Below are positions 10,358 to 59,203 of a stretch of DNA of 64,000 nt, piece by piece. The stretch is from the IMG/VR virus record IMGVR_UViG_2851955134_000009; one strand, given 5' to 3'. Both the position numbers and the translations under genes were made by a program. Below the pieces are notes generated by a model. That model saw nothing but the letters and a program-made list of their open reading frames with translations. It made no database searches and was not told the origin of the DNA. Position 1 is the first letter of the stretch. Every line of letters starts with the position of its first letter. Source of the stretch: a virus (taxonomy: Duplodnaviria; Heunggongvirae; Uroviricota; Caudoviricetes).

Positions 10358-10376
10358 GGCGTGGCGGGGATACGAG
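10358..10376. other. Candidate cos (cohesive end) site of the P2-like phage
   Basis: GGCGTGGCGGGGA matches the start of the P2/186 19-nt cos sequence as recalled (GGCG[A/T]GGCGGGGAAAGCA.); lies between replication and head genes as expected. Confidence 0.4.
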
Positions 10377-10462
10377 CGCGCGTATTAGGTTTTATTTGAG
10401 AGCTTGTTAAATATGATGTTTCACAATTAGAATTGTCCGTAAATCATTCTGTTGGAGGCATT

Positions 10463-10645: not shown

Positions 10646-10658
10646 GGGAGTGATTGGT

Positions 10659-11225: not shown

Positions 11226-11719
11226 TTTATCATCCAGCATATGATGCCTATCATTGTCTATTTAGAATGATGGCAATTATGGAAAATACAAATCGGCTTG
11301 AGATTGATAAGCTTAAAATATTGGATTTTTACATTTTATTTCCTGCGTTATTAAGTGAAGTGAAAATGCCGAGAGAATTTATTAAAATTAAAAAAACAGC
11401 AAAACTACATCATAATGAATATCATGATCCATTGAGTCCAAGGATTATTTTCAAGGAAATGCGTCAAATACAGGATGCAGCACTAAAATGTATGCTTGCG
11501 ACTGGTTATATTGATTCTGATGATTTCAGCAATGGTTTTGTCTCAAGAACAAATAAACAATTACCACTGAACCTAGCCTTAGAAATGGGCGTTTTTTTAG
11601 AGCGCAAAGAACCGTTTTCATCTTTCATTACACAAAAGATGGCTAAATTTGATCTGACTGGACCTGATGGATTGAAGGCTAGAACTAAACTTATGGAGTA
11701 TAGATATGACACTTATTAA
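11219..11719 (+). CDS. Hypothetical protein, candidate cassette component
   Basis: 166 aa; ATG with AAGGTGGG RBS; 7-nt overlap with upstream gene and 14-nt overlap with the ATPase gene. Confidence 0.6.
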   Translation: MLVYHPAYDAYHCLFRMMAIMENTNRLEIDKLKILDFYILFPALLSEVKMPREFIKIKKTAKLHHNEYHDPLSPRIIFKEMRQIQDAALKCMLATGYIDSDDFSNGFVSRTNKQLPLNLALEMGVFLERKEPFSSFITQKMAKFDLTGPDGLKARTKLMEYRYDTY

Positions 11720-13610
11720 GCCTACTCTTATTGTAACCAGATTAACAGTTTTTCAACACGGACATCGTGCATTTGATTGTGAATTCCACAAAGGTGTTAA
11801 CATTATTCGTGGGCGAAATAGTTCTGGTAAAACTACAATAATGGATATGCTGGCATTTTCATTGGGAGCTGAAAATATCAGGTGGAAACCACAGGCTTTG
11901 AAATGCACTAGAACAATCGTTGAAGTGCTTCTCAATAATGAGAAAGCATGCTTTAAACGAGAGATATCTATTGAGCAAATGCGACCTCTTTATATTTATT
12001 GGGGAGCGATGGATAAGGCTTTGAATGCTGGGGAACACGAATGGGATTTATACCCATTCAAGAGAACTGAGAGTAAAATTAGCTTCACCCAAGCTATTTT
12101 CAATGCATTATCAATGCCCTTGGCACAAGGTGCTGGTTCTTCTAATTTGACATTGCATCAGATTTTACGTGTCTTGTATGCAGATCAGCCGTCGTTACAT
12201 AGTCCAATTTTTCGATTTGACAGATTTGATAATGCTCTTACCCGTGAGACGGTAGGTGGATACTTATGTGGTGTTTATAATGATGAGTTGTACAATGCAC
12301 AACTTTCTTTAAGAGATGTTGAGACCGAACTAACAAAGAAAGTTACTGAATTAAAAAGTATCTTTACTGTATTAGGTAGATCTGGACAGGCTCCAGATTT
12401 ACAAGGTATTGATGAGAAAATAAAGCATCTAAATAAATTGAGAGCTATTGAGAATGTAAAACTAACAAATAGAGCTATTATAACTAATGAAGAAGGGGCT
12501 GATTCTGAAAAACGAATGGGTACTATCAGGGAGGAACTCAATGAAGCTAAAAGGAAATTATCTTCCCTAAAAGATAAAATCCAATCTTTGGATTTTGAAA
12601 TTTCAGATTCTGATATGTTTATATCAGAATTAAATGAGCGGCTAAAAAACTTAGAACAGTCTCGAGAAACGCGTGCTATATTTGATAGTATGAATTTTGA
12701 TTTTTGCCCTAGTTGTCTTTCCAAAATAGATAAGGCTCATAATGATCATGTTTGTCATCTATGTAAAGTGGAACAATTAGATGATAAAGCTGAAAATCAG
12801 TTATTAAGAATGAAAAATGAATTAACTCTTCAAATCAAAGAATCTCTTCAATTAATGGATAGAAGAAAAGAAGAGTTGGTAAGATTAAAGCGAGATGTTC
12901 CTTTAGCTGAGAGTGAATTAAAAAGGCTTGAACAGGATTATTTCAAAGAGTCACACTATTGGTCTTCACCGCAAGAGTTAGCTGTAGGTAAAATATATAG
13001 GGAAATTGGACGGCTTGATGAAGAAATAAAAAGAGCTTATGAAGATAAGAAGCTTATTGTTGTTATTAATGAACTTCAAGAGCGTCGCGATGAACTTCAG
13101 GCGGAAAAAAATAGACTTGATGATCTTATTGAACTTTATGAAGAAAAAGAGGAAGTTCTTAAAGATAAAATTTATGCTTCAGTGAGCTCAATAGCACAAG
13201 AGCTTTTACAAGAAGATTTGCCTTTGCAAAAAGAGTTTATGTCTCCTGAAAGTGTGGAGTTTAGTTTTACTGATAATAGCGTTTATGTGAATGGTAGTAA
13301 GAACTTTTCTGAAAGTTCAGCTGTAGTATTAAGGCATATATTCCATTTGGCACTACTTTCAGCAAGTATAGAGAACCACTCAATGCGACTTCCAAGATTT
13401 ATGATGTTAGATGGGATCGACGATGGTGGAATGGAAAAAGAACGGAGTCACAATTTACAGGAAATAATAATTGATGAGTGCTCACGTTATGAACATGATT
13501 ATCAGTTGATATTTGCAACATCTGAAATAAATCCCAAATACAGTGAGAGTGAATATATTGTTGGTGAGTATTATTCGCCAGATAATTATTCATTGAAAAT
13601 AATTGAGTAA
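11706..13610 (+). CDS. SMC/Rad50-like ABC ATPase with long coiled-coil insert and CxxC...CxxC hook-like motif
   Basis: 634 aa; Walker A GRNSSGKTT near N-terminus, about 300-aa K/E-rich coiled coil with CPSC-x10-CHLC, C-terminal Walker-B-like FMMLDGIDD; no TOPRIM or nuclease domain visible. Confidence 0.75.
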   Translation: MTLIKPTLIVTRLTVFQHGHRAFDCEFHKGVNIIRGRNSSGKTTIMDMLAFSLGAENIRWKPQALKCTRTIVEVLLNNEKACFKREISIEQMRPLYIYWGAMDKALNAGEHEWDLYPFKRTESKISFTQAIFNALSMPLAQGAGSSNLTLHQILRVLYADQPSLHSPIFRFDRFDNALTRETVGGYLCGVYNDELYNAQLSLRDVETELTKKVTELKSIFTVLGRSGQAPDLQGIDEKIKHLNKLRAIENVKLTNRAIITNEEGADSEKRMGTIREELNEAKRKLSSLKDKIQSLDFEISDSDMFISELNERLKNLEQSRETRAIFDSMNFDFCPSCLSKIDKAHNDHVCHLCKVEQLDDKAENQLLRMKNELTLQIKESLQLMDRRKEELVRLKRDVPLAESELKRLEQDYFKESHYWSSPQELAVGKIYREIGRLDEEIKRAYEDKKLIVVINELQERRDELQAEKNRLDDLIELYEEKEEVLKDKIYASVSSIAQELLQEDLPLQKEFMSPESVEFSFTDNSVYVNGSKNFSESSAVVLRHIFHLALLSASIENHSMRLPRFMMLDGIDDGGMEKERSHNLQEIIIDECSRYEHDYQLIFATSEINPKYSESEYIVGEYYSPDNYSLKIIE

Positions 13611-13675: not shown

Positions 13676-14704
13676 TCAAAGTACGTATGGTCTAAACCTA
13701 ATTATTTCTATTTCAAGCCAGTCGTTTAATTGATCAAATCTTTTCTGCATGGGCACCAATTCATTGCGCATAAATACCTTACTAGCCTTCTCCACATCCC
13801 CAAACCCCCCAACATTATTCGGCAAAATTCCCATCATCTGAGGCGGTACGCGGTGTGCAGCCATCATGTCGTCCCGGCTCACGTTCTTGATGTTCAGAAA
13901 TTCATCTTTCGCTGCGACTTCTGACAACGGGATAATCTGAAGTCCGTCCTTTTTGCCGTTAGGCGAGTACATAAACAGATTGCGGAAGTTGCCTGGACCT
14001 TTGGCGCTTTTCATCGCGTTGCGGAGGTTGTTCACATCCTCCTGATTCTGCGCGGCGTCGGTCATGTACATGATGAAGCCTGCATGACTACCGTTGATGT
14101 AATACTTACGGCGGAACAGCGTGGCGGATTCGTTGAGCAGGGCGGATGGAATGGCAGAAAGATAGCCGGGCAGGCCGTAGATCTCCTGGTTGATGTCCGG
14201 TTCCATCAGATGAAAAATGCTGCCTTTCGTGAACTGATACGGCTGGGTTGTCATACCGTATTGCACAAACCAGTAGGTATCCAGGTCTAACCCGCGTCGG
14301 GTGTATTTTGCCAGCGCAGGCTCAAGGGCGATAACTTCACCGAATCGGTTCGTGCGTTTCTCCAGGTAGGCGTTACCAAATACCAGATAGTCCTGCACAA
14401 AACGCGAAAAAGCCTGTTGGCTGAGCAGCGGATGAGGGATATAGGTACTGGTCAGAATGTTGCACTTTACTGCAATCGGGGAACTGTGATGCACGGCAGC
14501 GCGGAAGGTGCGCGCCAGTCCGTCAAAGCTGACGGGAGGCTCATACCAGCGATCTGTCTGAACACATTCCACATAGTCCAGCAGTTCGCGGCGGTCAAGT
14601 ACTGGAACGGGATCACCGAAGCTGAATGCTTCGGCTGAAGTCTGGTTTTTATGCTGGATCTGATTCGTCGCCGCAGCGCGGTTTTTCTTACTCTTTCCCA
14701 TCAA
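13676..14704 (-). CDS. Q: Portal protein (P2 gpQ-like)
   Basis: 342 aa; size and position match P2 Q next to the terminase ATPase. Confidence 0.85.
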   Translation of the reverse strand: MMGKSKKNRAAATNQIQHKNQTSAEAFSFGDPVPVLDRRELLDYVECVQTDRWYEPPVSFDGLARTFRAAVHHSSPIAVKCNILTSTYIPHPLLSQQAFSRFVQDYLVFGNAYLEKRTNRFGEVIALEPALAKYTRRGLDLDTYWFVQYGMTTQPYQFTKGSIFHLMEPDINQEIYGLPGYLSAIPSALLNESATLFRRKYYINGSHAGFIMYMTDAAQNQEDVNNLRNAMKSAKGPGNFRNLFMYSPNGKKDGLQIIPLSEVAAKDEFLNIKNVSRDDMMAAHRVPPQMMGILPNNVGGFGDVEKASKVFMRNELVPMQKRFDQLNDWLEIEIIRFRPYVL

Positions 14705-20154: not shown

Positions 20155-20650
20155 ACGCTGCCTTGTCGGGGCTGTGCTGGCTATTGCTGCCACGCTGCCG
20201 GGTTTTCAGCAGCTTCACACCTCCGTGGAGGGACTGAAACTGATCGCCGATTACGAAGGCTGTCGTCTGCAGCCGTATCAGTGCAGCGCGGGTGTCTGGA
20301 CCGACGGCATTGGTAATACATCGGGCGTCATTCCCGGCAAAACAATCACGGAACGACAGGCAGCAGAAGGGCTGATCTCCAACGTGCTGCGTGTGGAGCG
20401 GGCGCTGGAAAGGTGTGTGAAGCAACAGCCACCGCAGAAGGTGTATGACGCTACGGTGTCGTTTGCCTTCAACGTGGGGACGGGCAATGCCTGTAGTTCC
20501 ACGCTGGTGAAATTGCTCAATCAGCGGCGCTGGGCGGATGCGTGCCGACAGTTGCCGCGCTGGGTGTATGTAAAAGGTGTGTTTAATCAGGGGCTAGATA
20601 ACCGCCGAGCGCGGGAGATGGCCTGGTGCCTTAAAGGAGCTGGACTATGA
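20135..20650 (+). CDS. Lysozyme/endolysin with N-terminal signal-anchor (SAR-type)
   Basis: 171 aa; hydrophobic N-terminus (LVGAVLAIAATLPG) followed by a lysozyme-like E...D...T region (YEGCRLQPYQCSAGVWTDGIGNT). Confidence 0.75.
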   Translation: MNPSIVKRCLVGAVLAIAATLPGFQQLHTSVEGLKLIADYEGCRLQPYQCSAGVWTDGIGNTSGVIPGKTITERQAAEGLISNVLRVERALERCVKQQPPQKVYDATVSFAFNVGTGNACSSTLVKLLNQRRWADACRQLPRWVYVKGVFNQGLDNRRAREMAWCLKGAGL

Positions 20651-21075: not shown

Positions 21076-21154
21076 CGGTGATCTGAATGCGTTGCTGGAT
21101 GAAACGGAGGCCGCCTGGGCGGTCTGTGCAGACAAAGTGGACATGATTATTTGA
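20918..21154 (+). CDS. lysC: o-spanin lipoprotein (Rz1-like, LysC), 3' end replaced by Mu-like insertion
   Basis: Lipobox LTLSGC; 78 aa; stop codon TGA is the first 3 nt of the inserted element; reconstructed empty site gives a 96-codon ORF. Confidence 0.7.
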   Translation: MRTRIYATGLILLCLLTLSGCGNVRHSPEVQLTVSGCPRVTPCRLEQAAPRTNGDLNALLDETEAAWAVCADKVDMII

Positions 21155-21200
21155 TGCGCCGCGCGATAAATGCGCTCTATCTTGTGCGATAAATGGCATC
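21152..21200. repeat. Right-end terminal repeat region (transposase binding sites)
   Basis: TGATGCGCCGCGCGATAAATGCG...GTGCGATAAATGG, two GATAAAT motifs 22 bp apart; resembles the Mu R-end as recalled. Confidence 0.7.
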
Positions 21201-21229: not shown

Positions 21230-21802
21230 TTACATTTCAGGTTCCGTTATGACAGTCCCAACAGGGTGATAGCGGTAGATCGTTGACAGTCCAATATCAT
21301 AGATAATTGCCAGCCGCTTTCTGTCATACCCTTTCTGGAGCAATCTTGCGATCTGCTCATGCTGCTCCTTCGTCAGTTTCGGGCGACGTCCTCCAACTCT
21401 CCCTTGTGCTCGCGCAGCAGCCAGTCCTGCCAGCGTGCGCTCAACTATCAGTTCACGCTCCATTTCTGCCAGTGCACCCATCATATGAAAAAAGAACCTT
21501 CCCATCGGAGTGCTGGTATCGATTGAATCCGTCAGACTGCGAAAATTGACACCTTTTGCGCGTAGCTCTTCTGTGAGAGCAATGAGGTGTTTCATTCTTC
21601 TACCCAACCGATCCAGCTTCCAGACCACCAATGTATCCCCTCTTTTAAGGCACTTTAAAGCGCGTTTCAGGCCTGGTCGTTCCGACTTGGTTCCGCTCAT
21701 TTTGTCCTCAAAAATCTGTTCACATCCTGCGCACATTAATGCATTGCGTTGCAAATCTGTGTTTTGGTCATTTGTTGACACACGTATGTAGCCAATCAGC
21801 AT
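21230..21802 (-). CDS. gin: Serine DNA invertase (Gin/Hin/Cin family)
   Basis: 190 aa from ATG at 21802 (MLIGYIRVSTNDQ...); resolvase catalytic N-terminus and C-terminal HTH; adjacent to invertible tail-fibre segment. Confidence 0.9.
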   Translation of the reverse strand: MLIGYIRVSTNDQNTDLQRNALMCAGCEQIFEDKMSGTKSERPGLKRALKCLKRGDTLVVWKLDRLGRRMKHLIALTEELRAKGVNFRSLTDSIDTSTPMGRFFFHMMGALAEMERELIVERTLAGLAAARAQGRVGGRRPKLTKEQHEQIARLLQKGYDRKRLAIIYDIGLSTIYRYHPVGTVITEPEM

Positions 21803-21915
21803 TAAAAATACTCCCTTTTGAGTGGTTAAAGTACTGAGATAATGTGAGGAGGATTTGAGAGATAAACGTTGGTTTGGGGGAAGGCTCTGCATTGCCTGTT
21901 GGTGTACCGGTTCCA

Positions 21916-21948
21916 TGGCCCACCGCCACACCGCCAGCAGGCTGGTTA
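21916..21948. repeat. Inverted repeat, left crossover site of invertible segment
   Basis: 33-bp TGGCCCACCGCCACACCGCCAGCAGGCTGGTTA, perfect inverted copy at 23394..23426. Confidence 0.8.
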
Positions 21949-22335
21949 CAGTGCAACGGAGCTACGTTCACCAAAGAACAATATCCTGTTCTGGCCAGAG
22001 TCTACCCGACCCTCCGTCTTCCCGATTTGCGCGGTGAGTTTATCCGTGGATGGGACGGTGGTCGCAAGGTTGATACCGGGCGTGCGCTACTTTCATTTCA
22101 GGAAGGGACTATCGTATCCGGTTTTGATGATAATGATACCGGAGATATCAGTTCGCTCGGCTCTACACAATACGGATTTGGTGACGCTTTAACCTCTAAT
22201 CAACTGGGGGTCATAAATGGCAAAAAGTGGATATTTGATGCATCCTCTAAAGGTGCACAAAGATATGACTGGTGGGCTTATGTATCAGCTCGCCCCCGCA
22301 ATATCGCATTTAACTATATCGTGAGGGCGGCGTGA
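21949..22335 (+). other. Silent alternative tail-fibre C-terminal cassette (Sv'-like)
   Basis: Shares the GEGSALPVGVPVPWPTATPPAGWL junction and the C-terminal NYIVRA with the expressed fibre; no own ATG (track start is TTG inside the repeat). Confidence 0.7.
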
Positions 22336-22341
22336 TACCGT

Positions 22342-22956
22342 TCAGCCGGCAAGCGCCAGTGGCGCTTCCGGCCAGCTGATTTCAGGTGCCTTGCTGATAT
22401 CCAGTGCGTTCAGCTCGTCGATATAATCCAGCACGGCGTTCAGTTTTGCCGTTTCTTCTGGTTTCAGACTGCGACCTGCCCGCAGTTTGAGGTTGATGAG
22501 GTCGATGGACTTCATCGCCTGATCCACCCGTTCCTGGCGTTGCAGTCTGGCAACCTCCAGCTCTGCGGCTCGCTGCCGTTCAGTATCGGTTACCCACGCC
22601 TCACCGTTCCAGGTATCCCATGGCGTGGCCGGCTGTTTTGTGGTGGTGTCCGCCGGGTAATCACCCGGCTGGGTAATCTGAACGGGAGTACCGTTCTCCG
22701 TGCTGTATACCGTCTCGCCGCGGTGATCAGGCACATGTTCCCACCCGTTCAGCGTGGCAGTCCGGCAAACCACGTAACCCGAAATTGCCTCCGGCGGTGC
22801 ATCGGCGCACGAATGTGCCGGAGTACCCACCCCAAGGGCGAGATACTCCACAGAGGATGAGGTGTATTCCCGGGTTTCCTCGTCATAGTGATATACAGTG
22901 ATATCGCCCGCTACAGTGGCGATACCGTTTTCATCCAGAACTGCAGTGTTACTCAT
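22342..22956 (-). CDS. Tail fibre assembly protein (Mu U-like chaperone)
   Basis: 204 aa, immediately downstream of the fibre gene, inside the invertible segment. Confidence 0.8.
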   Translation of the reverse strand: MSNTAVLDENGIATVAGDITVYHYDEETREYTSSSVEYLALGVGTPAHSCADAPPEAISGYVVCRTATLNGWEHVPDHRGETVYSTENGTPVQITQPGDYPADTTTKQPATPWDTWNGEAWVTDTERQRAAELEVARLQRQERVDQAMKSIDLINLKLRAGRSLKPEETAKLNAVLDYIDELNALDISKAPEISWPEAPLALAG

Positions 22957-24725
22957 TAAACTGCCCTCACAATGTAATTAAGTGCAATGCTACGGGGTCT
23001 GACAGTGATACCCTTCGCATACCCGCTTCTGATAGAGGTCAGAATAGTAGCCTGCATACCATTGTCTGACATTGCCACGACAGGATCGCTGAATGTTGTC
23101 CCGTCCGGCATTTTAAAGCTGCCCTCACGAAGGTCTGTAATGGAATCTTCATTGTTGAATCCCATGCCGACTATCCCCGAGGTTCCCGTAGTGTCCTGGT
23201 TATAATAATCCAGCATTGCTGTTCTTAACAGCGTTGCCCCTTGTGCGGACAGCAACTTACGTCCTGTATCAACTTTGCGCCCGTCGTCCCATCCACGGAT
23301 AAACTCACCGCGCAAATCGGGAAGACGGAGGGTCGGGTAGGCTCTGGCCAGAACAGGATATTGTTCTTTTGTAAAGGCGCGCCCGTCGCACTTTAACCAG
23401 CCTGCTGGCGGTGTGGCGGTGGGCCACGGAACAGGCACACCAACGGGTAGCGCCGAGCCTTCTCCTAAACCAAGGTAATTGAGGACATCTTTTATACTGC
23501 CCTTAGCGATAATAGCGCGACCAATAGCTGTAAGGGTTGCCAGCGCTGCGCGGTCTGCTCCGGTAAAATAAGGCAACCGATCTGCTGCAGTGGCAAGTCC
23601 TGCCAGAGCAGTGAGCGTGGCATCTGCCGGTTGTTTTCCGTTTGCCAGATCGTATGCAGCCTTGACCGCTTTCGGTGTGGCGGCCAGTATTTCAGACGTG
23701 CTGTTGATGGCACTGCTCAGTTGTACGGTGCCTTTTGCCGTCAGCGAGGCCGCAGGCACTCCCGTTATCTGACTCCACGGGTGAGTGTGGCTGGCAGGCG
23801 CCTTGCCGGCTGCCAGGTCGTATGCAGCCTTGACCGCTTTCGGTGTGGCGGCCAGCGTTTCAGACGTGCTGTTGATGGCACTGCTCAGTTGTACGATCCC
23901 TTTACGGGTCGTTGTTGCATCCTGGGCTGTGTATTTTCCCCGGGCCAGATCATACGCGATTTTCACAGCCTTCGGCGTGGCAGCCTCAGTTTCTGATTGA
24001 CTGTCCGTGGCGCTGCTCAGTTGTACGGTGCCTTTTGCCGTCAGTGAAGCCGCAGGCACTCCCGTTATCTGACTCCACGGGTGAGTGTGGCTGGCAGGCG
24101 CCTTGCCGGCTGCCAGGTCGTATGCAGCCTTGACCGCTTTCGGTGTGGCGGCCAGCGTTTCAGACGTGCTGTTGATGGCACTGCTCAGTTGTACGATCCC
24201 TTTACGGGTCGTTGTTGCATCCTGGGCTGTGTATTTTCCCCGGGCCAGATCATACGCGATTTTCACAGCCTTCGGCGTGGCAGCCTCAGTTTCTGATTGA
24301 CTGTCCGTGGCGCTGCTCAGTTGTACGGTGCCTTTTGCCGTCAGTGAAGCCGCAGGCACTCCCGTTATCTGACTCCACGGGTGAGTGTGGCTGGCAGGCG
24401 CCTTGCCGGCTGCCAGGTCGTATGCAGCCTTGACCGCTTTTGGTGTGGCGGCCAGCGTTTCAGAGGTGCTGTTGGTGGCACTGCTCAGTTGGGTGAACCC
24501 CTTAGCTGTCAGTGTCGCGTCCGGGTGGTTACGGGAACGTACGTGTTCAGCCAGTGACTGTGCGGCTTCCTCCGTTTTCTTCTTCAGCCATTTCGTCCTG
24601 TTTGCCAGTTGCCGGGGGGCTCGATTTGATATCCCGTCTGCACCACCCAGAACCGGATCTGATGTCTCCAGTTGATAGATATTTTCTTCCCACTTTTCTG
24701 TTTCATTCAGGTTTCCCATAATCAA
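22956..24725 (-). CDS. Tail fibre protein (Mu S-like) with repetitive shaft
   Basis: 589 aa; about 100-aa repeats (GTVQLSSA..S.SET.AATPKAVK.AYDLA); C-terminal 145 aa lies inside the invertible segment. Confidence 0.85.
   Translation of the reverse strand: MIMGNLNETEKWEENIYQLETSDPVLGGADGISNRAPRQLANRTKWLKKKTEEAAQSLAEHVRSRNHPDATLTAKGFTQLSSATNSTSETLAATPKAVKAAYDLAAGKAPASHTHPWSQITGVPAASLTAKGTVQLSSATDSQSETEAATPKAVKIAYDLARGKYTAQDATTTRKGIVQLSSAINSTSETLAATPKAVKAAYDLAAGKAPASHTHPWSQITGVPAASLTAKGTVQLSSATDSQSETEAATPKAVKIAYDLARGKYTAQDATTTRKGIVQLSSAINSTSETLAATPKAVKAAYDLAAGKAPASHTHPWSQITGVPAASLTAKGTVQLSSAINSTSEILAATPKAVKAAYDLANGKQPADATLTALAGLATAADRLPYFTGADRAALATLTAIGRAIIAKGSIKDVLNYLGLGEGSALPVGVPVPWPTATPPAGWLKCDGRAFTKEQYPVLARAYPTLRLPDLRGEFIRGWDDGRKVDTGRKLLSAQGATLLRTAMLDYYNQDTTGTSGIVGMGFNNEDSITDLREGSFKMPDGTTFSDPVVAMSDNGMQATILTSIRSGYAKGITVRPRSIALNYIVRAV
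23394..23426. repeat. Inverted repeat, right crossover site of invertible segment
   Basis: Reverse complement of 21916..21948, located inside the fibre gene at the constant/variable junction. Confidence 0.8.
23640..24480. repeat. 300-bp tandem repeats within the tail-fibre gene
   Basis: 23761..24060 and 24061..24360 are identical, with diverged partial copies on both sides. Confidence 0.85.
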
Positions 24726-26734: not shown

Positions 26735-26788
26735 GGGGGCAGTATTGCCCCCGTGCGGGAACGCTGATATTAAAGGCGTTTAAGAAGC

Positions 26789-33064: not shown

Positions 33065-33161
33065 GATTGTGCTCCTGTGTAAGTTCAGGGCAGTATGTCG
33101 GGAGAAGCGCGTGACGGATATTAAAGGAGATTAAGAAGAAGGGGCCGGAGCCCCTGTGATG

Positions 33162-38971: not shown

Positions 38972-39185
38972 TTTGCTGTCCCGCGTTATGTTGTCGGAGA
39001 CAGTTTGTGAGAAATGCGGGCCCGGCGATTTTAATCTGCTTTAGAAAACATCAGGGGAGAAGGACAGGGAAAGCAATGTGGTGAACCGGAGGCAGTTATA
39101 AAACAGAGGCTGTAAAGCCTTTATAAAGGTAATACAGCCCCTCATTCGCTGGCAATGATAAATCACCCGCCTGAAGAGAGAAAAC

Positions 39186-43468: not shown

Positions 43469-44013
43469 GTGGCAATCCCCAGAATCTCGCGACGAAGTGC
43501 CTGTACTGCGTCGCTTGACAATCCGCCCTTACGGGCAATTTTCTCGGCCGCATTCGCTGCAAGTTCTGCTTTTTCCTTGACCTCACTCTGAAAACGCTTG
43601 AGATTGACAGAGGCGCGGGTCAGGGTCGCAATATTGCGGGAAGCGGTGGCCAGCAATTTCGCCCGATCAGTCGGATCATTCTCGTCACTGACTTGTTGCA
43701 GACGCATCAGGATGTCGATCATCTCCGTCTGGATCAACGTCATCAGTCCCGCAGAACGGTCATCCGCATCATCCCCCGCTTCACGAGCCATCAGCCTGGC
43801 TGCTTCAGTTGCCGCACGAACACGGGCCAGTTGCTGCTCCATTTTGTAGCCGAACCGCTGCAGGGAGGAGCGGGTTATCACATATCCCCTCTCTTTTAAC
43901 AAACTTTCAAGTTCAGCATAGCCGGTGAAATTATTCTCCGTCAGCGCCCGCTCCAGCCAGCGGCGGACATCCGTCGGCAGAGAATCAATGCTGCTGCGAC
44001 GTCCCATAATCAC
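43465..44013 (-). CDS. Terminase small subunit-like protein (Mu gp27 position)
   Basis: 182 aa helical protein directly upstream of terminase large subunit. Confidence 0.55.
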   Translation of the reverse strand: MIMGRRSSIDSLPTDVRRWLERALTENNFTGYAELESLLKERGYVITRSSLQRFGYKMEQQLARVRAATEAARLMAREAGDDADDRSAGLMTLIQTEMIDILMRLQQVSDENDPTDRAKLLATASRNIATLTRASVNLKRFQSEVKEKAELAANAAEKIARKGGLSSDAVQALRREILGIAT

Positions 44014-44321
44014 TCACTCCAGTATTTTTCCGGTCGGGCAATACCCGGGCCGCATTCCACGGTGTATTCCACAATATCCACACCAAGGCGACTCAGATCG
44101 GCAAACCAGTCACCGGACGGTCTCTTCTCCAGCTCCACCATTTTGCGATCTGCCAGATAATCAAGCTCCCGGCGCAGCTCCAGTTGCGTGGTGTCCGGGT
44201 AGATGGCGCGGGACACGTCCAGCAGCAGCGTCTCGCTGGCGGTGTAAGGGCGGGTTTTGTTCAGGGCAACCAGCAGACTCCAGCGCAGGGATTCACGGCG
44301 TACCCGGGTAATATCGACCAT
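44010..44321 (-). CDS. Hypothetical protein
   Basis: 103-aa ORF coupled to neighbours. Confidence 0.45.
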   Translation of the reverse strand: MVDITRVRRESLRWSLLVALNKTRPYTASETLLLDVSRAIYPDTTQLELRRELDYLADRKMVELEKRPSGDWFADLSRLGVDIVEYTVECGPGIARPEKYWSE

Positions 44322-44647
44322 TATTGACCTCCGGTATTGCGGTACTGCTGTACCACTTCCAGTTTGTTGTAAAGCGCGTCCAGTTTGGCCTCGATGACTG
44401 TCTGGCCACGGATATAATCCTCGCGACGGACATAATTCAGCGGTAAATCCGCTTTAAATCGCATAAATTCTTTTTCCAGCTCGCCCCAGTTGGATGCAGA
44501 CTGTTGCAGGGCCTGTTCAAGAGAGGCGAATCGTGCCGCCTGGCGTTCTTCTGTTTTACTGAACAACCATTTGGCGAGCCCTCCCACAAACCCCATGAAG
44601 GTGAGCAAAAAACTCACCACCGTCCAGAATTCAACCTGCAGTGTCAT
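44321..44647 (-). CDS. Membrane protein, lysis-region
   Basis: 108 aa with N-terminal TM helix. Confidence 0.5.
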   Translation of the reverse strand: MTLQVEFWTVVSFLLTFMGFVGGLAKWLFSKTEERQAARFASLEQALQQSASNWGELEKEFMRFKADLPLNYVRREDYIRGQTVIEAKLDALYNKLEVVQQYRNTGGQ

Positions 44648-45294
44648 TTCTGTAATCCTTCCCGTTCATCCAGTAGCGCGTTTATCTGGTTCCGCCAGCG
44701 ACGACATTGCCCTGCGTTGTCGATGATGTTGGCGAGAACGTCACGCTGGGAGACGCCTGAGTCGCGTAGCCAGGCGTCAGCGGTTTCAGGTTGCCCGGTC
44801 GCTGTGCCAGAGCGGGTGCCAGTGGCGGCAACTGAGTCTGAATGACCGCTGTCGACGGATGCGTTGTCATATCCGAGTGCGGCGTTGTACTGGCGCACGA
44901 AACCGCGAGTAAACACGCACTCAATGGGATGGCTCTTACCTTTTTCATCAATCCAGCGCTGTGTGACATCGTTAATTTGCCCCTGTAGTTGTTTATTCCG
45001 GCTCTCCAGTTGAGCAATCTGCTCAAGGTAACTGGCTTCAGCCTGCTGCCCGGCGGCCACCTGCTCCTGATACCGTTTTGCCCAGGCCCGCAACGCAGCG
45101 TTCTCAAGCGTTGCCTGCTCCGTTTTGTATTTGTCGAATGCTGACTGCAACTGACTGAGCGCGGTATTACCGTCACGCTTTGCAGAGTCATGACCACTGC
45201 TGTATCCCATGGCATACAGGCCGACCAGAAAGGCATTGATAAGAATGGCCAGCAGAATGCCGCGCCACGGCAGCTTTTTAACCAGATGCCACAC
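44644..45294 (-). CDS. Spanin-like lysis protein (TM plus coiled coil)
   Basis: Start set to GTG at 45294 with GGGAGG RBS; TM GILLAILINAFLVGLYAMGY then coiled coil. Confidence 0.55.
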   Translation of the reverse strand: MWHLVKKLPWRGILLAILINAFLVGLYAMGYSSGHDSAKRDGNTALSQLQSAFDKYKTEQATLENAALRAWAKRYQEQVAAGQQAEASYLEQIAQLESRNKQLQGQINDVTQRWIDEKGKSHPIECVFTRGFVRQYNAALGYDNASVDSGHSDSVAATGTRSGTATGQPETADAWLRDSGVSQRDVLANIIDNAGQCRRWRNQINALLDEREGLQK

Positions 45295-46018
45295 AACTGC
45301 TGCCTCCCCATGTGAGATATCGCGGTGCCAGCTCGCGCAGGATGCGTTGTGGATAATGGCGGTTCTCCCGCCAGCTGGCAGCATTGCGTCCGGCATTCAC
45401 CGTGGCGACATGTCCGAACCAGCGCTGACTGTCCAGCCCCAGATATGCGGCGAGCCGCTGGTCACGGCGCACCCAGCCCGGGCCACCGTTATAGCCCGAC
45501 AGTGTCATGGCCATACGCTCGCAGTCGCTGGCGGCACTGATGCGCTGCCACAGCCAGCGGTCATAACTGACCAGCGCCCGGATAGCCCATGCCGGATTAA
45601 ACGGCTCTCGACTGCTCAGCGCCGGCATCAACTGGCTTATCCAGTCGGCAGTGGCAGGCATAAACTGCGCCAGTCCCTGAGCCCCCACCGGCGAGATCGC
45701 ATCAGGTCGCCAGCCGCTTTCCTGATGCAGTTGCGCAGCGAAATCAGCCACCGGCGCAGACAGTCCCCATTCAAGCCGGGCATTACGGATCACATCATCG
45801 CGATACTGCAGGGCAGCCCGCGGGGGCTGTGCTGCGGATGCCTGACTGAAAAAGCCACCACACCAGAGCAACATTGCGACAAAGAATACCCATGCCATAT
45901 GAACCAGAAAGGTCCCGGCGCGGACTGACAGGCGTTCGGTTCTGATGAAGACCCGAAAGGCTTCGAAAGCCAGTTTCAGGGACATGCATACAATCCAGGT
46001 GATCTGCGGCCAGTTCAT
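45278..46018 (-). CDS. Lytic transglycosylase endolysin with N-terminal membrane anchor
   Basis: SLT-type motif (LHQESGWRP...AQGLAQFMPAT) and hydrophobic N-terminus; follows holin-like gene. Confidence 0.75.
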   Translation of the reverse strand: MNWPQITWIVCMSLKLAFEAFRVFIRTERLSVRAGTFLVHMAWVFFVAMLLWCGGFFSQASAAQPPRAALQYRDDVIRNARLEWGLSAPVADFAAQLHQESGWRPDAISPVGAQGLAQFMPATADWISQLMPALSSREPFNPAWAIRALVSYDRWLWQRISAASDCERMAMTLSGYNGGPGWVRRDQRLAAYLGLDSQRWFGHVATVNAGRNAASWRENRHYPQRILRELAPRYLTWGGSSCVASG

Positions 46019-46020
46019 GA

Positions 46021-46371
46021 TTAAAGCCCCATCGCAACAGCCAGACAGACAGCTGCAACAATCAGTGCACGACGAAGCAGGGCGGCAGCAAACACCAGAT
46101 GAAGCCCGGTCTGTACGGGCCAGCGCCCCTCAGCCATGAGGCGCTCGTCATGCTTCAGGTACTGCCCCGGGCGGGCCTTCGGGAAGAGCGAGCGGTCCAG
46201 CCAGTAGCCGAGAACGGAGGCGAGGGAGATGAGAGAGAGCTTGTACACCACCACCGGCAGCTGCTGGGGCGAGACCAGCGCGATGATGAGGAGCAGCAGT
46301 ACGGCGGCAACAAGCCAGCCACGCAGGCGGGTTTTTTGTACGTCTGCGATAAGGGAGGTGAGTTTTTTCAT
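46021..46371 (-). CDS. Holin-like membrane protein
   Basis: 116 aa with 2-3 TM helices, first gene of leftward late/lysis operon. Confidence 0.55.
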   Translation of the reverse strand: MKKLTSLIADVQKTRLRGWLVAAVLLLLIIALVSPQQLPVVVYKLSLISLASVLGYWLDRSLFPKARPGQYLKHDERLMAEGRWPVQTGLHLVFAAALLRRALIVAAVCLAVAMGL

Positions 46372-46503
46372 AAAGATGTCTCCTTGTGTAGTGGAGACAG
46401 CATCACAAATACGGGGCGCGAAGGATTTTAAAGCGCGTTAAGAGAGCCGGGGATACGGGATGCGCAGAATAAACGATGAATTATTCACAGAGGAGAATAC
46501 GAT

Positions 46504-47707: not shown

Positions 47708-48472
47708 ATGAAAATGCAGACATTACCCATCGTTCCATGGATTGGTGGCAAACGCCGCCTTGCAAAACACATTCTGCCGCTGTTTCCGGCGCATGAATGT
47801 TATGTGGAGCCGTTTTGTGGGGCAGCAGCGCTCTATTTTCTTAAGACACCCGGCAAGATCGAAGTCATCAATGATATCAACGGTGAACTGGTGAATCTGT
47901 ACCGGGTGGTAAAGCATCACCTGGAAGAATTTGTCCGCCAGTTCAAATGGGCGCTGGTCAGCCGTCAGATCTACAAATGGCTGCAGATCACCCCGGAAGA
48001 AACACTGACGGATATCCAGCGTGCGGCACGGTTCTACTACCTTCAGAAGCAGGCGTTTGGCGGCAAGGTGGCAGAGCACAGCTTCGGTACCTCCACCACA
48101 TCCCCGCCACGCTTCAACCTGCTGCGTATTGAAGAAGAACTGTCAGCGGCACACCTGCGGCTTTCCAGAACAGTCATAGAACACATGGACTGGCAACAGT
48201 GCATTGAGCGTTATGATCGTCCGCACACGCTGTTCTACTGCGACCCACCGTACCTGGGTACGGAAGGCTATGGTGTGGATTTTCCTGAAGGGAACTACTC
48301 GCGGCTGGCAGAGCTGGCCCGGTGCATCAGAGGAAAAATGATAATTTCGGTGAACGACATCCCGCAGATGCGCGAGGTGTTCACTGGACTGAACATACAG
48401 ACAGTGAATATCAACTACAGTCTGGCGGGTAAATCCACGCCGCGCCGTGAACTGCTAATCTGCAACTTCTGA
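47708..48472 (+). CDS. DNA N6-adenine methyltransferase (Dam-like, orphan)
   Basis: 254 aa; PWIGGKRRL N-terminal motif and DPPY catalytic motif (LFYCDPPYLGT); no restriction partner. Confidence 0.85.
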   Translation: MKMQTLPIVPWIGGKRRLAKHILPLFPAHECYVEPFCGAAALYFLKTPGKIEVINDINGELVNLYRVVKHHLEEFVRQFKWALVSRQIYKWLQITPEETLTDIQRAARFYYLQKQAFGGKVAEHSFGTSTTSPPRFNLLRIEEELSAAHLRLSRTVIEHMDWQQCIERYDRPHTLFYCDPPYLGTEGYGVDFPEGNYSRLAELARCIRGKMIISVNDIPQMREVFTGLNIQTVNINYSLAGKSTPRRELLICNF

Positions 48473-48588: not shown

Positions 48589-48936
48589 TCAGCCTGCGAT
48601 TTTTCCTGGTTTTGGCTGAGTATAGAAGCGCCCAACCTCAAGAAATGAGCGTCGTTGCTCCGGAGTCATTTCATCAAATGCGTCCATTAATTTCTGTTTG
48701 TCTGGTGACATTTTTGGGATAGCGTTGGTAGTTGCATCCCCTCTCTGTCCCGTAACAACGTAAAGCACGTCAAGCCCCAAAGTAGCCCAAATTGCCAAAG
48801 CATCTGCTCCGGGAGCGGATTCATCCTTTTCCCACCGCAATTGGCTTTTATAGGATGCCCCCACCAATTCAGCAAACTCAGACTGACTAAATCCTAGGCG
48901 GTTTCGTTCTTCTTTTAATCGTGAACCAAGTGACAT
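48589..48936 (-). CDS. Repressor-like HTH protein (XRE/Cro-C1 type)
   Basis: 115 aa; HTH (RLGFSQSEFAELVGASYKSQLRWE); divergent from Ner-like early operon. Confidence 0.7.
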   Translation of the reverse strand: MSLGSRLKEERNRLGFSQSEFAELVGASYKSQLRWEKDESAPGADALAIWATLGLDVLYVVTGQRGDATTNAIPKMSPDKQKLMDAFDEMTPEQRRSFLEVGRFYTQPKPGKIAG

Positions 48937-56826: not shown

Positions 56827-57268
56827 ACAACGTCTTATCCAGCTTATCCATATTGCCCGTAATGAACTGGGTATGGATGAAGACACCTACCGCCAGATGT
56901 TACAGGGGCTGACCGGTAAAGCCTCAACCAAAGGAATGGATACCACACAACTAAACTGCGTGCTGGAATCCATGAAAAAGAAAGGCTTTCGCGTTAAACC
57001 AGCCAGAAAAGCCAGCTCCGGTTTACCGCTGGATAACCATCCGCAGTCCAGGAAAATTCGTGCGCTATGGCTTGAAATGGCTGCTGCCGGCATTGTTCGT
57101 GACCGTTCAGAAAATGCATTAGCGAGGTGGATCAAGCGGGAAACGGGCATCAGCGCCCTGCGCTGGCTCAGTACTGAACAGGCAGGCAGTGTTATTGAGA
57201 AACTGAAGAAGTGGCAGCACAGAGCTGCGGGAGTAAAACATGAGCGACCTGAATCAGTTTCGAAGTAA
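56816..57268 (+). CDS. gemA: GemA-like regulatory protein (Mu gp16 family)
   Basis: 150 aa; MTKQRLIQLIHIARNELGMDEDTYRQML...; AGGAG RBS. Confidence 0.65.
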   Translation: MMTKQRLIQLIHIARNELGMDEDTYRQMLQGLTGKASTKGMDTTQLNCVLESMKKKGFRVKPARKASSGLPLDNHPQSRKIRALWLEMAAAGIVRDRSENALARWIKRETGISALRWLSTEQAGSVIEKLKKWQHRAAGVKHERPESVSK

Positions 57269-57638
57269 AGGGCCGGAACTCCTGGTGGAACTGGCACAGC
57301 ATACCTCTGAGACCGTTCGCGAGATTATTGATATTGAGCCCGCAATTGCCGACCAGATTGGTCAGGCCGTCGCGAACCGCATGATGCAGGTCTGGGGCGG
57401 GCAAAACGTTTATTTCCCGATGGGCATGGTATGGAAGGTCAGTCAGCGCGACCGGGAAATCTTCAGGGAGTTTAACGGACGTAACCACCATGAACTGGCC
57501 CGCAAATTTGGTGTTTCGCTTCAGTGGGTCTACAGCGTGGTTAAGCGGGTAAGAAAAGAAGAACTGGATCGGATGCAGGGCAGGTTGTTTGATGAAGATC
57601 TGCCAGAGGAGACGAAAGACGTTAACAAATCCAGATAA
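57240..57638 (+). CDS. mor: Mor-like middle-operon transcriptional activator
   Basis: 132 aa; C-terminal HTH (ELARKFGVSLQWVYSVVKR); position after gemA as in Mu. Confidence 0.65.
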   Translation: MSDLNQFRSKGPELLVELAQHTSETVREIIDIEPAIADQIGQAVANRMMQVWGGQNVYFPMGMVWKVSQRDREIFREFNGRNHHELARKFGVSLQWVYSVVKRVRKEELDRMQGRLFDEDLPEETKDVNKSR

Positions 57639-57682
57639 TTCCTGCTTGTTAAAGTCCTTTCAAAAATCTCCTTATTGTATAA

Positions 57683-57714
57683 AAGCACGGTAGACCCCTT
57701 ACCGTGCTTTTTTT
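57683..57714 (+). terminator. Rho-independent terminator ending the early operon
   Basis: Perfect 10-bp stem AAGCACGGTA/TACCGTGCTT, 7-nt loop, followed by T7. Confidence 0.8.
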
Positions 57715-57752
57715 ATGCTCTCTCTTTAGTATTCAGGATGCAGGGAGAAAAT

Positions 57753-58385
57753 ATGTTTGACGTTTCGTTGTTAAATCTGCCATGGGCAACACTGGTGACC
57801 CTGACCAGTGGCTATATTGGGTATTTTATTGCGAATGTGGGACTGAAGGATCACCACAAGCCCATTGAGGTGACTTTTTCTTCGCTGATTTTTGGCCTGA
57901 CAGCAATGATGGCTTACCAGGCTGTTATGTGGGCAGGTCTGAATGCCTGGCTGGCAACACCACCAGCACTTCTGTGTGCCGTTACATGCGGTGCGTGGTG
58001 GCGCAGGTACGGTCGCAAATGGATGTACAGATTACTGTGGAATAATGATATTTCATGGTCTGACGATACCAGCTCAGCATGGCAGGCAATGTTTGATCAA
58101 ACAGGCTTCAGCGTTACCGAGGTCAGAGTGATTCTTCGCGATGGTTCCGGTATGATGTCACGGCTGCCAGGGAACTTTGAAGAGTGGCCTAACGGTCCGT
58201 TTACCCTGGGGAATAAAGGCGATATGGTTCTTTACGTCACGCACAGCAGCCCTTCAGGCAGTAACGAATGGGAAGAGTATAAAGGCGTGGTTGATAAGTA
58301 CTGGGGAGCTCTGGCAACCTATATTCCAGCAGATCAGATTGCCAGAGTGGAGATCAGGCGCGTTCGTGCAACGAACGATGAATGA
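57753..58385 (+). CDS. Membrane protein moron at the element left end
   Basis: ATG at 57753 with GGGAG RBS; 210 aa; 3 predicted TM helices at N-terminus; separated from early operon by a strong terminator. Confidence 0.6.
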   Translation: MFDVSLLNLPWATLVTLTSGYIGYFIANVGLKDHHKPIEVTFSSLIFGLTAMMAYQAVMWAGLNAWLATPPALLCAVTCGAWWRRYGRKWMYRLLWNNDISWSDDTSSAWQAMFDQTGFSVTEVRVILRDGSGMMSRLPGNFEEWPNGPFTLGNKGDMVLYVTHSSPSGSNEWEEYKGVVDKYWGALATYIPADQIARVEIRRVRATNDE

Positions 58386-58689
58386 TGTTTATTTTTTCCC
58401 TGGGGCAGGGGCTGCCGGCATAGTGGTTTTATTGGCAGAGGAAGACGATTCTCCTTTTCTACCGGAATCGCGCTCGAACGTCACGATGTGCTTGCTTTTG
58501 GGCTTTTCTGAGTAATCCAGGCTATCATGCTTATTGTTTTGAGTAGTCATTGGAATCATCCTTTTTGTTGCGGGTCATGTTTCAGCAAACTCGATTCTAA
58601 GTTGCCAGGAAGGATGATTTCAATGCCCGACTTATCTATCGTATAGCGGAAAAGAATTTCAGTTCTGTTCACCAGAACCCATGTTAACC

Positions 58690-58746
58690 CACTCCAATTC
58701 GTTATTTATCTCACGGATCCCCCTTCATTTATCTCATGTCTGATCA
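58690..58746. repeat. Left-end terminal repeat region (transposase binding sites)
   Basis: Reverse complement reads TGATCAGACATGAGATAAATGA...GTGAGATAAATAA, same motif spacing as the right end. Confidence 0.7.
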
Positions 58747-58771
58747 ATTATTGCGTGTCAGGAGCGAAACA

Positions 58772-59203
58772 GTGAACAAACCACAATCCCTGCGCCACGC
58801 CCTCAATAAAGCGGTGCCTTATGTCCGCAATAACCCGGACAAACTGCATCTGTTTGTGGATAACGGTTCGCTGGTTGCCACGGGGGCCAGCTCCATGTCA
58901 TGGGAGTACCGCTACACCCTGAACGTGGTGATTGAGGATTTCAGCGGCGACCAGAATCTGCTGATGGCCCCGGTTTTGCTGTGGCTGCGTGATAACCAGC
59001 CCGATGCCATCAATAACCCGGCGTTACGGGAAAAGCTATTCACCTTTGAGGTGGATATTCTGCGCAACGATGTCTGTGATATCAGCCTCAACCTGCAACT
59101 GACGGAGCGTGTGCTGGTCAGCACTGACGGCAGTGTGTCGAGCGTTGAAGCTATAGCGGAACCTGATGAACCTGAAGAAATGTGGACGGTGAAACGTGGC
59201 TGA
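58772..59203 (+). CDS. R: Tail completion protein (P2 gpR-like)
   Basis: GTG at 58772 with AGGAG RBS; the track start at 58736 lies inside the Mu-like end and is probably not native. Confidence 0.75.
   Translation: MNKPQSLRHALNKAVPYVRNNPDKLHLFVDNGSLVATGASSMSWEYRYTLNVVIEDFSGDQNLLMAPVLLWLRDNQPDAINNPALREKLFTFEVDILRNDVCDISLNLQLTERVLVSTDGSVSSVEAIAEPDEPEEMWTVKRG

What the first reader, a model, noticed from the sequence alone, without database searches (positions are those of the whole stretch)
57683..58385. Terminator-insulated membrane protein moron at the left end of the Mu-like element
The early operon ends at a strong intrinsic terminator (57683..57714). A separately initiated 210-aa protein with three N-terminal TM helices and a soluble C-terminal domain follows, just inside the left end. 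A terminator-flanked, autonomously expressed gene at a prophage end is the usual signature of a moron expressed in the lysogen, for example superinfection exclusion or abortive infection.
Basis: partly seen in the sequence, partly recalled or inferred. Interest (0 to 1): 0.5.

Follow-up and report, generated by a model that had tools for sequence, protein, structure and literature searches.

The report
Two-gene accessory cassette at prophage end
The gene is real and is optional cargo at the end of a Mu-like prophage, but it is one half of a conserved two-gene cassette (a membrane protein plus a tiny proline-rich protein read from the opposite strand) that moves between unrelated phages and is a plausible, untested anti-phage system.

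Summary
A strong intrinsic terminator (57681-57714) follows mor. A 210-aa ORF (57753-58385) then encodes three uncharged helices and a C-terminal Sm/LSm-like beta-barrel. It stops 361 bp inside the end (58746) of a 37.6-kb BcepMu-type transposable prophage, which sits inside a P2-like prophage.

The moron reading is supported by comparison. Of 639 complete E. coli genomes with this gemA-mor region, 117 carry the cassette and 531 have mor followed by about 190 bp and the end. BcepMu and phage PhiKM also lack it. Homologues occur in HK97-like and P2-like phages (there in the gpQ-gpA defence hotspot) and in alpha-proteobacterial islands next to Abi genes.

- The gene has a near-universal partner, a convergent 53-aa disordered proline-rich ORF (58389-58550) with its own conserved sigma-70 promoter.
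- There is no terminator downstream.
- The gene's own promoter is only a weak candidate, overlapping the terminator.

The gene lacks the motif shared by the element's four late promoters. It matches no Pfam, PADLOC or NCBIfam model; its only family is phrog_12870, function unknown. Expression in lysogens and any defence function remain untested. My best guess is a lysogen-expressed, membrane-acting exclusion or abortive-infection module restrained by the microprotein.

The parts
57240..57638 (+). mor, the last gene of the early operon (context). Nucleotide similarity to cassette-less relatives ends at 57595, inside its 3' end.
   Evidence: Pfam Mor, 1.1e-43. BLASTN against phage PhiKM stops at 57595.
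57681..57714 (+). Intrinsic terminator closing the early operon: 13-bp stem, 5-nt loop, seven T. An A-tract lies upstream, so it may also stop leftward transcription.
   Evidence: -19.1 kcal/mol, z = -7.0. Kept by position in relatives with different stems. Bidirectionality is inferred from the sequence only.
57691..57719 (+). Candidate weak promoter for the 210-aa gene: -35 TAGACC (57691-57696, in the hairpin loop), 17-nt spacer, -10 TATGCT (57714-57719).
   Evidence: Read from the sequence; 8 of 12 matches, below the scan's threshold. The same geometry occurs in variants with another hairpin: TGGATA-17-TATTCT in L063 and TGGATT-18-TATTCT in L008. Inferred, not shown.
57753..58385 (+). 210-aa membrane protein: three helices, an amphipathic basic stretch and a cytoplasmic Sm/LSm-like beta-barrel. 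Family phrog_12870, distantly related to DUF6338.
58389..58550 (-). Convergent partner ORF, 53 aa (56 aa if read from the ATG at 58559). Hydrophilic, no predicted secondary structure. Motifs [YF]xxP[KR] and C-terminal PxPxKK. Its stop codon lies 3 nt from the stop of the 210-aa gene.
   Evidence: phrog_15726, 1.2e-41. Annotated in RefSeq as WP_001571575.1. Present beside homologues in gamma- and alpha-proteobacteria; alignment A2. AF2 gives no secondary structure and pTM 0.18.
58594..58623 (-). Sigma-70-type promoter for the small ORF: TTGAAA, 18 nt, TAGAAT. No terminator lies between it and the hairpin at 57681-57711, so its transcript would run antisense through the 210-aa gene.
   Evidence: 10 of 12 matches. 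Identical hexamers in L063; conserved in L002, L003, L005 and L008. No terminator on the - strand after the small ORF.
58702..58746 (.). End of the element: two direct copies of (T/C)ATTTATCTCA(C/T)G (58702-58715 and 58726-58739) and the terminus ...TGATCA. These are probable transposase-binding sites.
   Evidence: Sequence. Conserved in relatives up to ...TCTGATCA or ...CCTATCA, after which the flanks differ. Inverted GATAAATG copies lie at the other end, 21151-21200.
58747..58751 (.). 5-bp target-site duplication ATTAT; the other copy is at 21146-21150. The element therefore spans 21151-58746 (37,596 bp).
   Evidence: The intact P2-like prophage of REL606 reads ...gacatgATTATtgcgtg.... Window sequence.

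Best explanation
The feature is a mobile two-gene accessory cassette (a moron in the broad sense). It occupies the cargo slot between mor and the left end of a BcepMu-type transposable prophage.

Gene 1 encodes a 210-aa inner-membrane protein. It has three weakly hydrophobic helices, of which the first and the start of the second are very conserved. Its C-terminal Sm/LSm-like small beta-barrel is predicted to face the cytoplasm. Gene 2 is read convergently, with stop codons 3 nt apart. It encodes a 53-aa disordered proline-rich microprotein ending in PxPxKK.

The cassette is dispensable for phage growth.

I think it most likely is expressed from the prophage and protects the lysogen against other phages by acting at the membrane, either by blocking entry or by abortive infection through permeabilisation. 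In this model the membrane protein is the effector. The microprotein, together with the antisense transcript from its strong promoter, keeps the effector low or inactive until infection disturbs that balance. The PxxP-plus-lysine tail may bind the small beta-barrel.

Shown here: the anatomy, the optional presence, the mobility between phage types, the pairing of the two genes, and the absence of the late-promoter motif. Inferred: expression in the lysogen, a defence role, the effector/regulator roles and the tail-barrel contact.
For: - Optional cargo: BcepMu has mor as its last gene, 364 bp from the end. PhiKM is 92-99% identical to this element elsewhere but goes from mor to the end in about 190 bp.
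- In complete E. coli genomes, 639 carry gemA-mor, 117 carry the cassette and 531 carry the short end.
- Mobility: homologues lie between the head-tail connector and head-completion genes of an HK97-like phage, and between portal/ogr and gpA of a P2-like phage. Rousset et al. define that interval as a defence hotspot (PMC9122126). Another lies in a phage that encodes a Mu F-like protein (L061).
- In alpha-proteobacteria, homologues sit in small islands with a resolvase and an integrase, next to Abi_alpha or DUF4145 genes.
- Pairing: a convergent 33-84-aa proline-rich ORF abuts the stop codon in nearly every intact locus with enough flank, down to 37% identity of gene 1.
- Regulation: four late promoters share TTAAWATC-N23-CTGYCYYS with no mismatch, and none lies near the cassette. 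A conserved terminator insulates the cassette from the early operon. A conserved 10/12 promoter drives gene 2.
Against: - There are no expression data, and no experiment on any family member was found.
- No match to any PADLOC model. The defence argument is guilt by association, resting on one P2-hotspot locus and two islands with Abi-type neighbours.
- The promoter of gene 1 is weak (8/12) and missed the consensus scan. The strongest promoter is antisense to it, so the membrane protein may be nearly silent in lysogens.
- Within Enterobacterales Mu-like prophages the gene is syntenic and diverges about as much as core early genes (60-69% against 47-67%). That also fits a long-resident phage gene with a phage-specific role.
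- The tail-barrel contact is pure inference, and the microprotein has been lost in symbiont lineages that keep gene 1.
Confidence: 0.45

Rival explanations
1. Selfish toxin-antitoxin or addiction cassette with no defence role. The membrane protein is a toxin. The labile microprotein and/or its antisense RNA is the antidote. The pair persists on mobile elements because losing it kills the cell.
For: The two-gene convergent layout has abutting stops and a strong promoter only on the small gene. It occurs on several kinds of mobile elements. The microprotein is predicted to be disordered, as many antitoxins are.
Against: A transposable prophage does not excise, so addiction brings it little benefit. 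Gene 1 survives without the small ORF in symbiont genomes, which argues against strong unrestrained toxicity. Gene 1 is often a pseudogene in Bradyrhizobium. TA and abortive infection are not mutually exclusive.
Confidence: 0.15
2. Lysogenic-conversion gene unrelated to phages. The protein forms an oligomeric membrane channel or sensor that changes host physiology (ions, osmotic or envelope stress), on the model of a ring-forming Sm-like cytoplasmic domain under three helices, as in MscS.
For: The architecture is three helices, then an amphipathic basic helix, then an Sm-like barrel. Sm-like domains commonly form rings (established knowledge). The first helix is highly conserved and rich in polar residues.
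Confidence: 0.15
3. Lytic-cycle accessory of the phage itself. The gene is expressed by read-through of the mor terminator (or from late transcripts in other phages) and acts in lysis timing, host takeover or exclusion during lytic growth.
For: It lies downstream of and co-oriented with the early operon, and in the HK97-like phage it is co-oriented with late genes. The helical part gives weak holin-like structural matches among viral proteins (E 0.02-0.5). Its divergence in Enterobacterales resembles that of core early genes.
Against: A strong, conserved terminator stands between it and mor. It has no late-promoter motif. The element has its own holin, SLT lysin and downstream lysis genes at 44010-46371. 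PhiKM, deposited as a phage record, and BcepMu lack the gene.
Confidence: 0.12
4. Single-gene moron. The small ORF is an irrelevant or untranslated by-product of the element's end.
For: The small ORF is short and of low complexity. It is missing in L006, L007 and L015 and is doubtful in the P2-like locus L052.
Against: An ORF of the same size, orientation, position and C-terminal PPxPxKK motif lies beside homologues in non-Mu contexts in alpha-proteobacteria and in other phages, where no Mu end exists. It has its own PHROG family and a conserved promoter.
Confidence: 0.08

Closest known systems
Phage morons that encode membrane exclusion proteins, e.g. HK97 gp15, P22 SieA, T4 Imm (recalled from the literature, not tested here)
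   Same: An optional gene inserted between genes that are adjacent in related phages. It encodes a small inner-membrane protein with little periplasmic exposure. It is insulated from the neighbouring operon and is carried by a prophage.
   Different: No sequence or profile similarity to any of them. It is a two-gene convergent unit. It has a folded cytoplasmic Sm-like domain. There is no terminator of its own downstream. Expression and phenotype are untested.
Two-component membrane-acting abortive-infection or TA systems (lambda RexAB, hok/sok-type antisense-controlled membrane toxins; recalled)
   Same: A membrane protein is paired with a second small component. Antisense or convergent transcription across the membrane-protein gene is a plausible control. 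The unit is carried by a prophage.
   Different: No homology. The partner here is a translated, conserved proline-rich microprotein rather than a short RNA or a cytoplasmic sensor such as RexA. Toxicity has not been shown.
Pfam DUF6338 (PF19865), an uncharacterised family of integral membrane proteins
   Same: Similar size and N-terminal helices. Four homologues score 22.5-25.9 bits against it over the TM2 to post-TM3 region.
   Different: All scores are below the gathering threshold of 26.5, and the window protein gives no hit at all. DUF6338 has no known function, so membership would explain nothing.
MscS-family mechanosensitive channels
   Same: Three transmembrane helices, the last continuing into an amphipathic helix, followed by a cytoplasmic Sm-like beta domain (architecture only).
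   Different: hhalign probability 0.1%. MscS is not among the structural matches. The protein lacks the large alpha-beta vestibule domain and is 76 residues shorter.
Cargo of the P2 gpQ-gpA defence hotspot (Rousset et al. 2022, PMC9122126)
   Same: One homologue (L052) lies exactly in that interval of a P2-like phage. This window's own P2-like prophage carries a Lamassu-type system in that interval.
   Different: In this window the cassette is in a Mu-like prophage, not in the P2 hotspot. The family is not among the systems I could find described in that paper.

Membership tests
Moron (extra gene unit in a phage genome) | Present in one phage and absent between the same neighbours in a close relative | tested here: met
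   PhiKM, BcepMu and 531 E. coli genomes have mor followed directly by the end; 117 genomes carry the cassette.
Moron (extra gene unit in a phage genome) | Own promoter | tested here: inconclusive
   Gene 1 has only an 8/12 candidate overlapping the terminator, conserved in geometry. Gene 2 has a conserved 10/12 promoter.
Moron (extra gene unit in a phage genome) | Own terminator downstream | tested here: not met
   No terminator after either stop codon. The only terminator is the one upstream, shared with the early operon.
Moron (extra gene unit in a phage genome) | Expressed from the repressed prophage | not testable with these tools
   This needs RNA-seq or 5' end mapping of a lysogen.
Known anti-phage defence systems (PADLOC-DB v2.0.0) | Profile match to a component of a known or candidate system | tested here: not met
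   No family at E up to 1 for either protein.
Pfam DUF6338 | Score at or above the gathering threshold of 26.5 bits | tested here: not met
   The query gives no hit at E up to 10. Homologues P0052, P0060, P0069 and P0051 score 22.5-25.9 bits.
MscS-like channels | Sequence or profile homology to the MS_channel core (TM3 plus beta domain) | tested here: not met
Phage holins | Located in the lysis cassette, under late control, about 70-150 aa with no large soluble domain | tested here: not met
   The element's holin and SLT lysin lie at 45278-46371, downstream of a late-promoter motif. This gene has a 90-residue folded domain and no such motif. Holin-like structural matches are weak.
Mu/BcepMu core (transposition, regulation, virion) | Conserved in all members; homology to a known component | tested here: not met
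   Absent from BcepMu and PhiKM. No Pfam or NCBIfam match; the PHROG family has unknown function.
Toxin-antitoxin pair | Adjacent toxin gene and small antidote gene, with toxicity relieved by the antidote | tested here: inconclusive
   The gene pairing is conserved. Toxicity and neutralisation cannot be tested here.

The most novel reading that the evidence does not exclude
A previously undescribed anti-phage system spread among Mu-like, P2-like and HK97-like temperate phages and genomic islands of Proteobacteria. Its effector is a ring-forming three-helix membrane protein with a cytoplasmic Sm-like barrel. The effector is held in check by a convergently transcribed, intrinsically disordered microprotein whose PxxP-lysine tail docks on the barrel, as SH3 ligands do, and by the microprotein's antisense transcript. 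Infection releases the effector to block DNA entry or to depolarise the cell.
Probability: 0.2. Interest if true: 0.7.

Novelty: new variant of a known kind. Interest (0 to 1): 0.5.

Why it matters
Prophage cargo slots are a productive source of new defence systems. Here an uncharacterised family (521 representatives at 50% identity, all of one architecture) turns out to travel as a fixed pair with a microprotein. The pair occurs in at least three or four unrelated temperate-phage backbones (Mu-like, P2-like, HK97-like and at least one other), including one established defence hotspot.

If it is defensive, it adds a membrane effector with an Sm-like domain and a microprotein regulator to the known repertoire. 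It also marks the mor-proximal end of E. coli BcepMu-type prophages, which are present in about 12% of complete genomes, as a cargo slot worth mining.

If it is not defensive, it is still a clean natural presence/absence polymorphism (117 genomes against 531) for testing what such cargo does for uropathogenic and commensal E. coli.

Tried and rejected
- Hairpin as a Mor-binding dyad driving the gene as a middle or late transcript: the dyad occurs only once in the window, and the real late-promoter motif is different and absent here.
- MscS homology: rejected by hhalign and by the fold searches.
- Holin or antiholin: only weak BFVD matches to the helical part, and the lysis cassette is elsewhere.
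- SNIPE/PD-lambda-1 (membrane-bound nuclease): I read the paper. It has a different architecture, with one TM helix, DUF4041 and a GIY-YIG domain.
- Klebsiella phage KP12 as an example of different cargo in the slot: the ORF after its mor is a Mu gp27 (terminase small subunit) fragment in a partial, probably permuted record, so I dropped it.
- A structured RNA in 57500-58900: no Rfam match better than E 0.59.
- Sequence search of solved structures with the family profile: nothing below E 0.6.
- The afdb50 fold library was not available.
- Literature searches for the protein accession, DUF6338 and Mu-like moron defence found nothing relevant.
- Plasmids: only one distant full-length hit and some Bradyrhizobium fragments.
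- Base composition: the cassette has 0.47-0.51 GC in its coding part, falling to 0.42 toward both flanks, against 0.42-0.63 in the early operon. That is not distinctive.

Full report
**1. What is in the sequence**

mor (57240-57638, Pfam Mor 1.1e-43) follows gemA. It is followed by a hairpin with a 13-bp stem at 57681-57711 and a run of seven T. As RNA the hairpin folds at -19.1 kcal/mol, z = -7.0 against shuffles.

An ORF starts 38 nt after the T-run, at ATG 57753, with GGGAG 5 nt upstream. It ends at TGA 58385 and encodes 210 aa. The start is the invariant first residue of 33 aligned homologues.

**2. The surrounding element**

The window holds a P2-like prophage:
- gpA at 6430-8844
- portal at 13676-14704
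- lysis genes up to about 21150
- gpR onward from 58772

A 37,596-bp transposable prophage (21151-58746) is inserted into its lysC gene.

The right boundary is fixed in three ways. First, 117 E. coli genomes match up to 58747-58752 and then diverge into different host genes such as rstB, yecR, tnaB, mdfA and kefF. Second, more than a thousand genomes match only from 58747 onward, and those matches are the P2 lysC/tail-gene junction. Third, the intact junction in REL606 reads gacatgATTATtgcgtg, which gives a 5-bp duplication ATTAT at 21146-21150 and 58747-58751.

The element is of the BcepMu type:
- Late genes run leftward from a holin at 46371, and early genes run rightward to mor.
- Its transposition ATPase is 59% identical to BcepMu gp08.
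- In BcepMu, mor is gene 01 at the left end, so 'left end' is a fair name.

The 210-aa gene stops 361 bp from that end. The terminal 45 bp carry two direct copies of a 14-bp repeat and the terminus TGATCA, which is conserved in relatives.

**3. The protein**

It matches nothing in Pfam, NCBIfam or PADLOC. It belongs to phrog_12870, of unknown function.

A word-seeded search found 72 relatives in Enterobacterales and alpha-proteobacteria. A full profile search found 521 representatives at 50% identity. Almost all are 200-215 aa and align end to end, so the family has one architecture and is rare. Four homologues fall just below the threshold of DUF6338, an uncharacterised membrane family.

The AlphaFold2 model (pLDDT 82) has helices 11-28, 37-60 and 65-97, a short helix, and a beta domain at 119-205. 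The three long helices carry no basic residue and only one acidic one (E39), and are only moderately hydrophobic. Basic residues sit in loop 1 and right after helix 3, which suggests an N-out, C-in topology with the beta domain in the cytoplasm.

**4. It is optional cargo**

BcepMu has no gene between mor and its end. Escherichia phage PhiKM is 92-99% identical to this element over most of its length. Its similarity stops at 57595, inside the 3' end of mor, and its own mor is followed by about 190 bp and the end.

In complete E. coli genomes, 639 of 5426 have this gemA-mor segment. Of these, 117 have the cassette and 531 have the short PhiKM-type end.

A third form has an extra 80-aa gene between mor and the terminator. 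It carries a 75% or 87% identical copy of the 210-aa gene. The slot is therefore variable, and the cassette is not needed for transposition, virion formation or lysis.

**5. It moves between elements**

In Enterobacterales Mu-like prophages the homologue always follows mor. Its identity (60-69%) is similar to that of core early genes. Elsewhere it sits in other places:
- between the head-tail connector and head-completion genes of an HK97-like phage (L056/L071)
- between portal/ogr and the replication gene gpA of a P2-like phage (L052), which is the interval Rousset et al. define as the P2 defence hotspot (PMC9122126)
- after a Mu F-like gene in another phage (L061)
- in small alpha-proteobacterial islands with a serine recombinase and an integrase, next to an Abi_alpha gene (L009) or a DUF4145 gene (L011)
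- near a DUF4411/M78-peptidase pair in a sphingomonad

**6. The missed partner**

On the opposite strand an ORF of 53 aa (58389-58550; 56 aa if read from 58559) ends 3 nt from the stop of the 210-aa gene. It belongs to phrog_15726 and is annotated in RefSeq.

An ORF of the same orientation, position (stops within about 20 nt) and size (33-84 aa) lies beside nearly every intact homologue that has enough flanking sequence. This holds in non-Mu contexts and at 37-42% identity of the large protein.

The small proteins are hydrophilic and variable, but they share an aromatic-x-x-Pro-basic motif and a C-terminal PPxPxKK-type tail. AlphaFold2 predicts no secondary structure for the window copy (single sequence, so this is weak evidence).

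The ORF has been lost in the Arsenophonus, Pantoea persica and Phlomobacter copies and is doubtful in L052.

**7. Signals**

The only consensus-grade promoter in the cassette is TTGAAA-18-TAGAAT on the minus strand (58623-58594, 10/12). It drives the small ORF and is conserved in relatives.

No terminator follows either stop codon. Transcripts from this promoter should therefore run antisense through the 210-aa gene until the hairpin at 57711-57681. That hairpin has an A-tract on its other side and may work in both directions (inference).

For the 210-aa gene I find only a weak candidate promoter: TAGACC (in the hairpin loop), 17 nt, TATGCT (immediately after the T-run). The same geometry recurs where the hairpin sequence differs: TGGATA-17-TATTCT in L063 and TGGATT-18-TATTCT in L008.

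The hairpin is not a repeated operator. Four late operons of the element share TTAAWATC-N23-CTGYCYYS without a mismatch, at 46393-46431, 38996-39034, 33086-33124 and 26735-26773. The scan, which allowed up to two mismatches, found five sites in all (the fifth, with two mismatches, lies outside the element) against 0.56 expected by chance. The cassette has no copy, so it is outside the presumed Mor-dependent late regulon.

**8. Interpretation**

The evidence establishes an optional, mobile, two-gene cassette that is insulated from the early operon. It does not establish expression in the lysogen or a function.

I favour a lysogen-expressed, membrane-acting exclusion or abortive-infection module, for four reasons:
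- the kind of slots it occupies
- the Abi-type neighbours in islands
- the effector-like membrane protein
- the restraint implied by a strong antisense promoter and a disordered partner

A PxxP-plus-lysine tail is the classic ligand type for small beta-barrels of the SH3/Sm kind, so a direct tail-barrel contact is an attractive but untested idea.

The rivals are a pure addiction module, a conversion gene with a physiological role, and a lytic-cycle accessory gene. They are listed with their tests in the Rival explanations section.

**9. Verdict**

The moron interpretation is supported in its comparative sense. It is incomplete in anatomy and unproven in function.

The family is uncharacterised, and the pairing with a microprotein appears to be undescribed in the literature I could search. 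I rate it a new variant of a known kind (prophage accessory or defence cargo), of moderate interest.

Noticed in passing
window 21146-21150 and 58747-58751 (element 21151-58746): The BcepMu-type prophage is inserted inside the lysC (Rz1-like) gene of a P2-like prophage, with a 5-bp duplication ATTAT. This is a prophage within a prophage, and it should cripple lysis and late-operon continuity of the P2-like phage.
   Followed up: yes
window 46393-46431, 38996-39034, 33086-33124, 26735-26773 (all - strand): Four perfect copies of TTAAWATC-N23-CTGYCYYS lie upstream of the lysis, head, tail and baseplate operons. They are probably the Mor-dependent late promoters of this phage group, analogous to Mu's four late promoters.
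   Followed up: partly
window 10614-13610 (+): A Lamassu / ABC-three-component type defence system sits in the gpA-gpQ hotspot of the P2-like prophage: CTD9 effector 10614-11225, MC5 middle component 11219-11719 and an LmuB-like SMC ATPase 11706-13610. A DinI-like gene lies at 9125-9430.
   Followed up: partly
window 21230-22335: A Gin-like serine invertase (21230-21931, -) lies next to an alternative tail-fibre C-terminal segment on the opposite strand (21869-22335). This is probably an invertible host-range segment at the other end of the Mu-like element. The tail-fibre gene at 22956-24725 contains internal repeats of roughly 300 bp.
   Followed up: no
L063-L067 5663-5905 (E. coli variants of the same prophage): An extra 80-aa gene with no Pfam or PADLOC match sits between mor and the terminator in prophages that carry 75-87% identical copies of the 210-aa gene. 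This is a second layer of cargo in the same slot.
   Followed up: partly
L013, L014, L016, L017 (Bradyrhizobium), L015 (Phlomobacter): Homologues of the 210-aa gene are frameshifted or reduced to fragments in several Bradyrhizobium genomes and plasmids and in an insect-symbiont genome. This suggests frequent decay.
   Followed up: no
L021 (PQ738613.1) 20233-20560; L023 (OM835952.1) 10282-10611: The PhiKM record contains a stretch of host DNA, annotated as an Fe2+ ABC transporter permease, between its tail-fibre gene and the element end. The KP12 record is filed under Vequintavirinae and has a Mu gp27 fragment right after mor. Both look like assembly or permutation artefacts of packaged Mu-type DNA.
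   Followed up: partly
window 5516-6433 and 47708-48472: There are two D12-class adenine methyltransferase genes, one in the P2-like prophage and one in the Mu-like prophage next to its HTH repressor (48589-48936, -).
   Followed up: no
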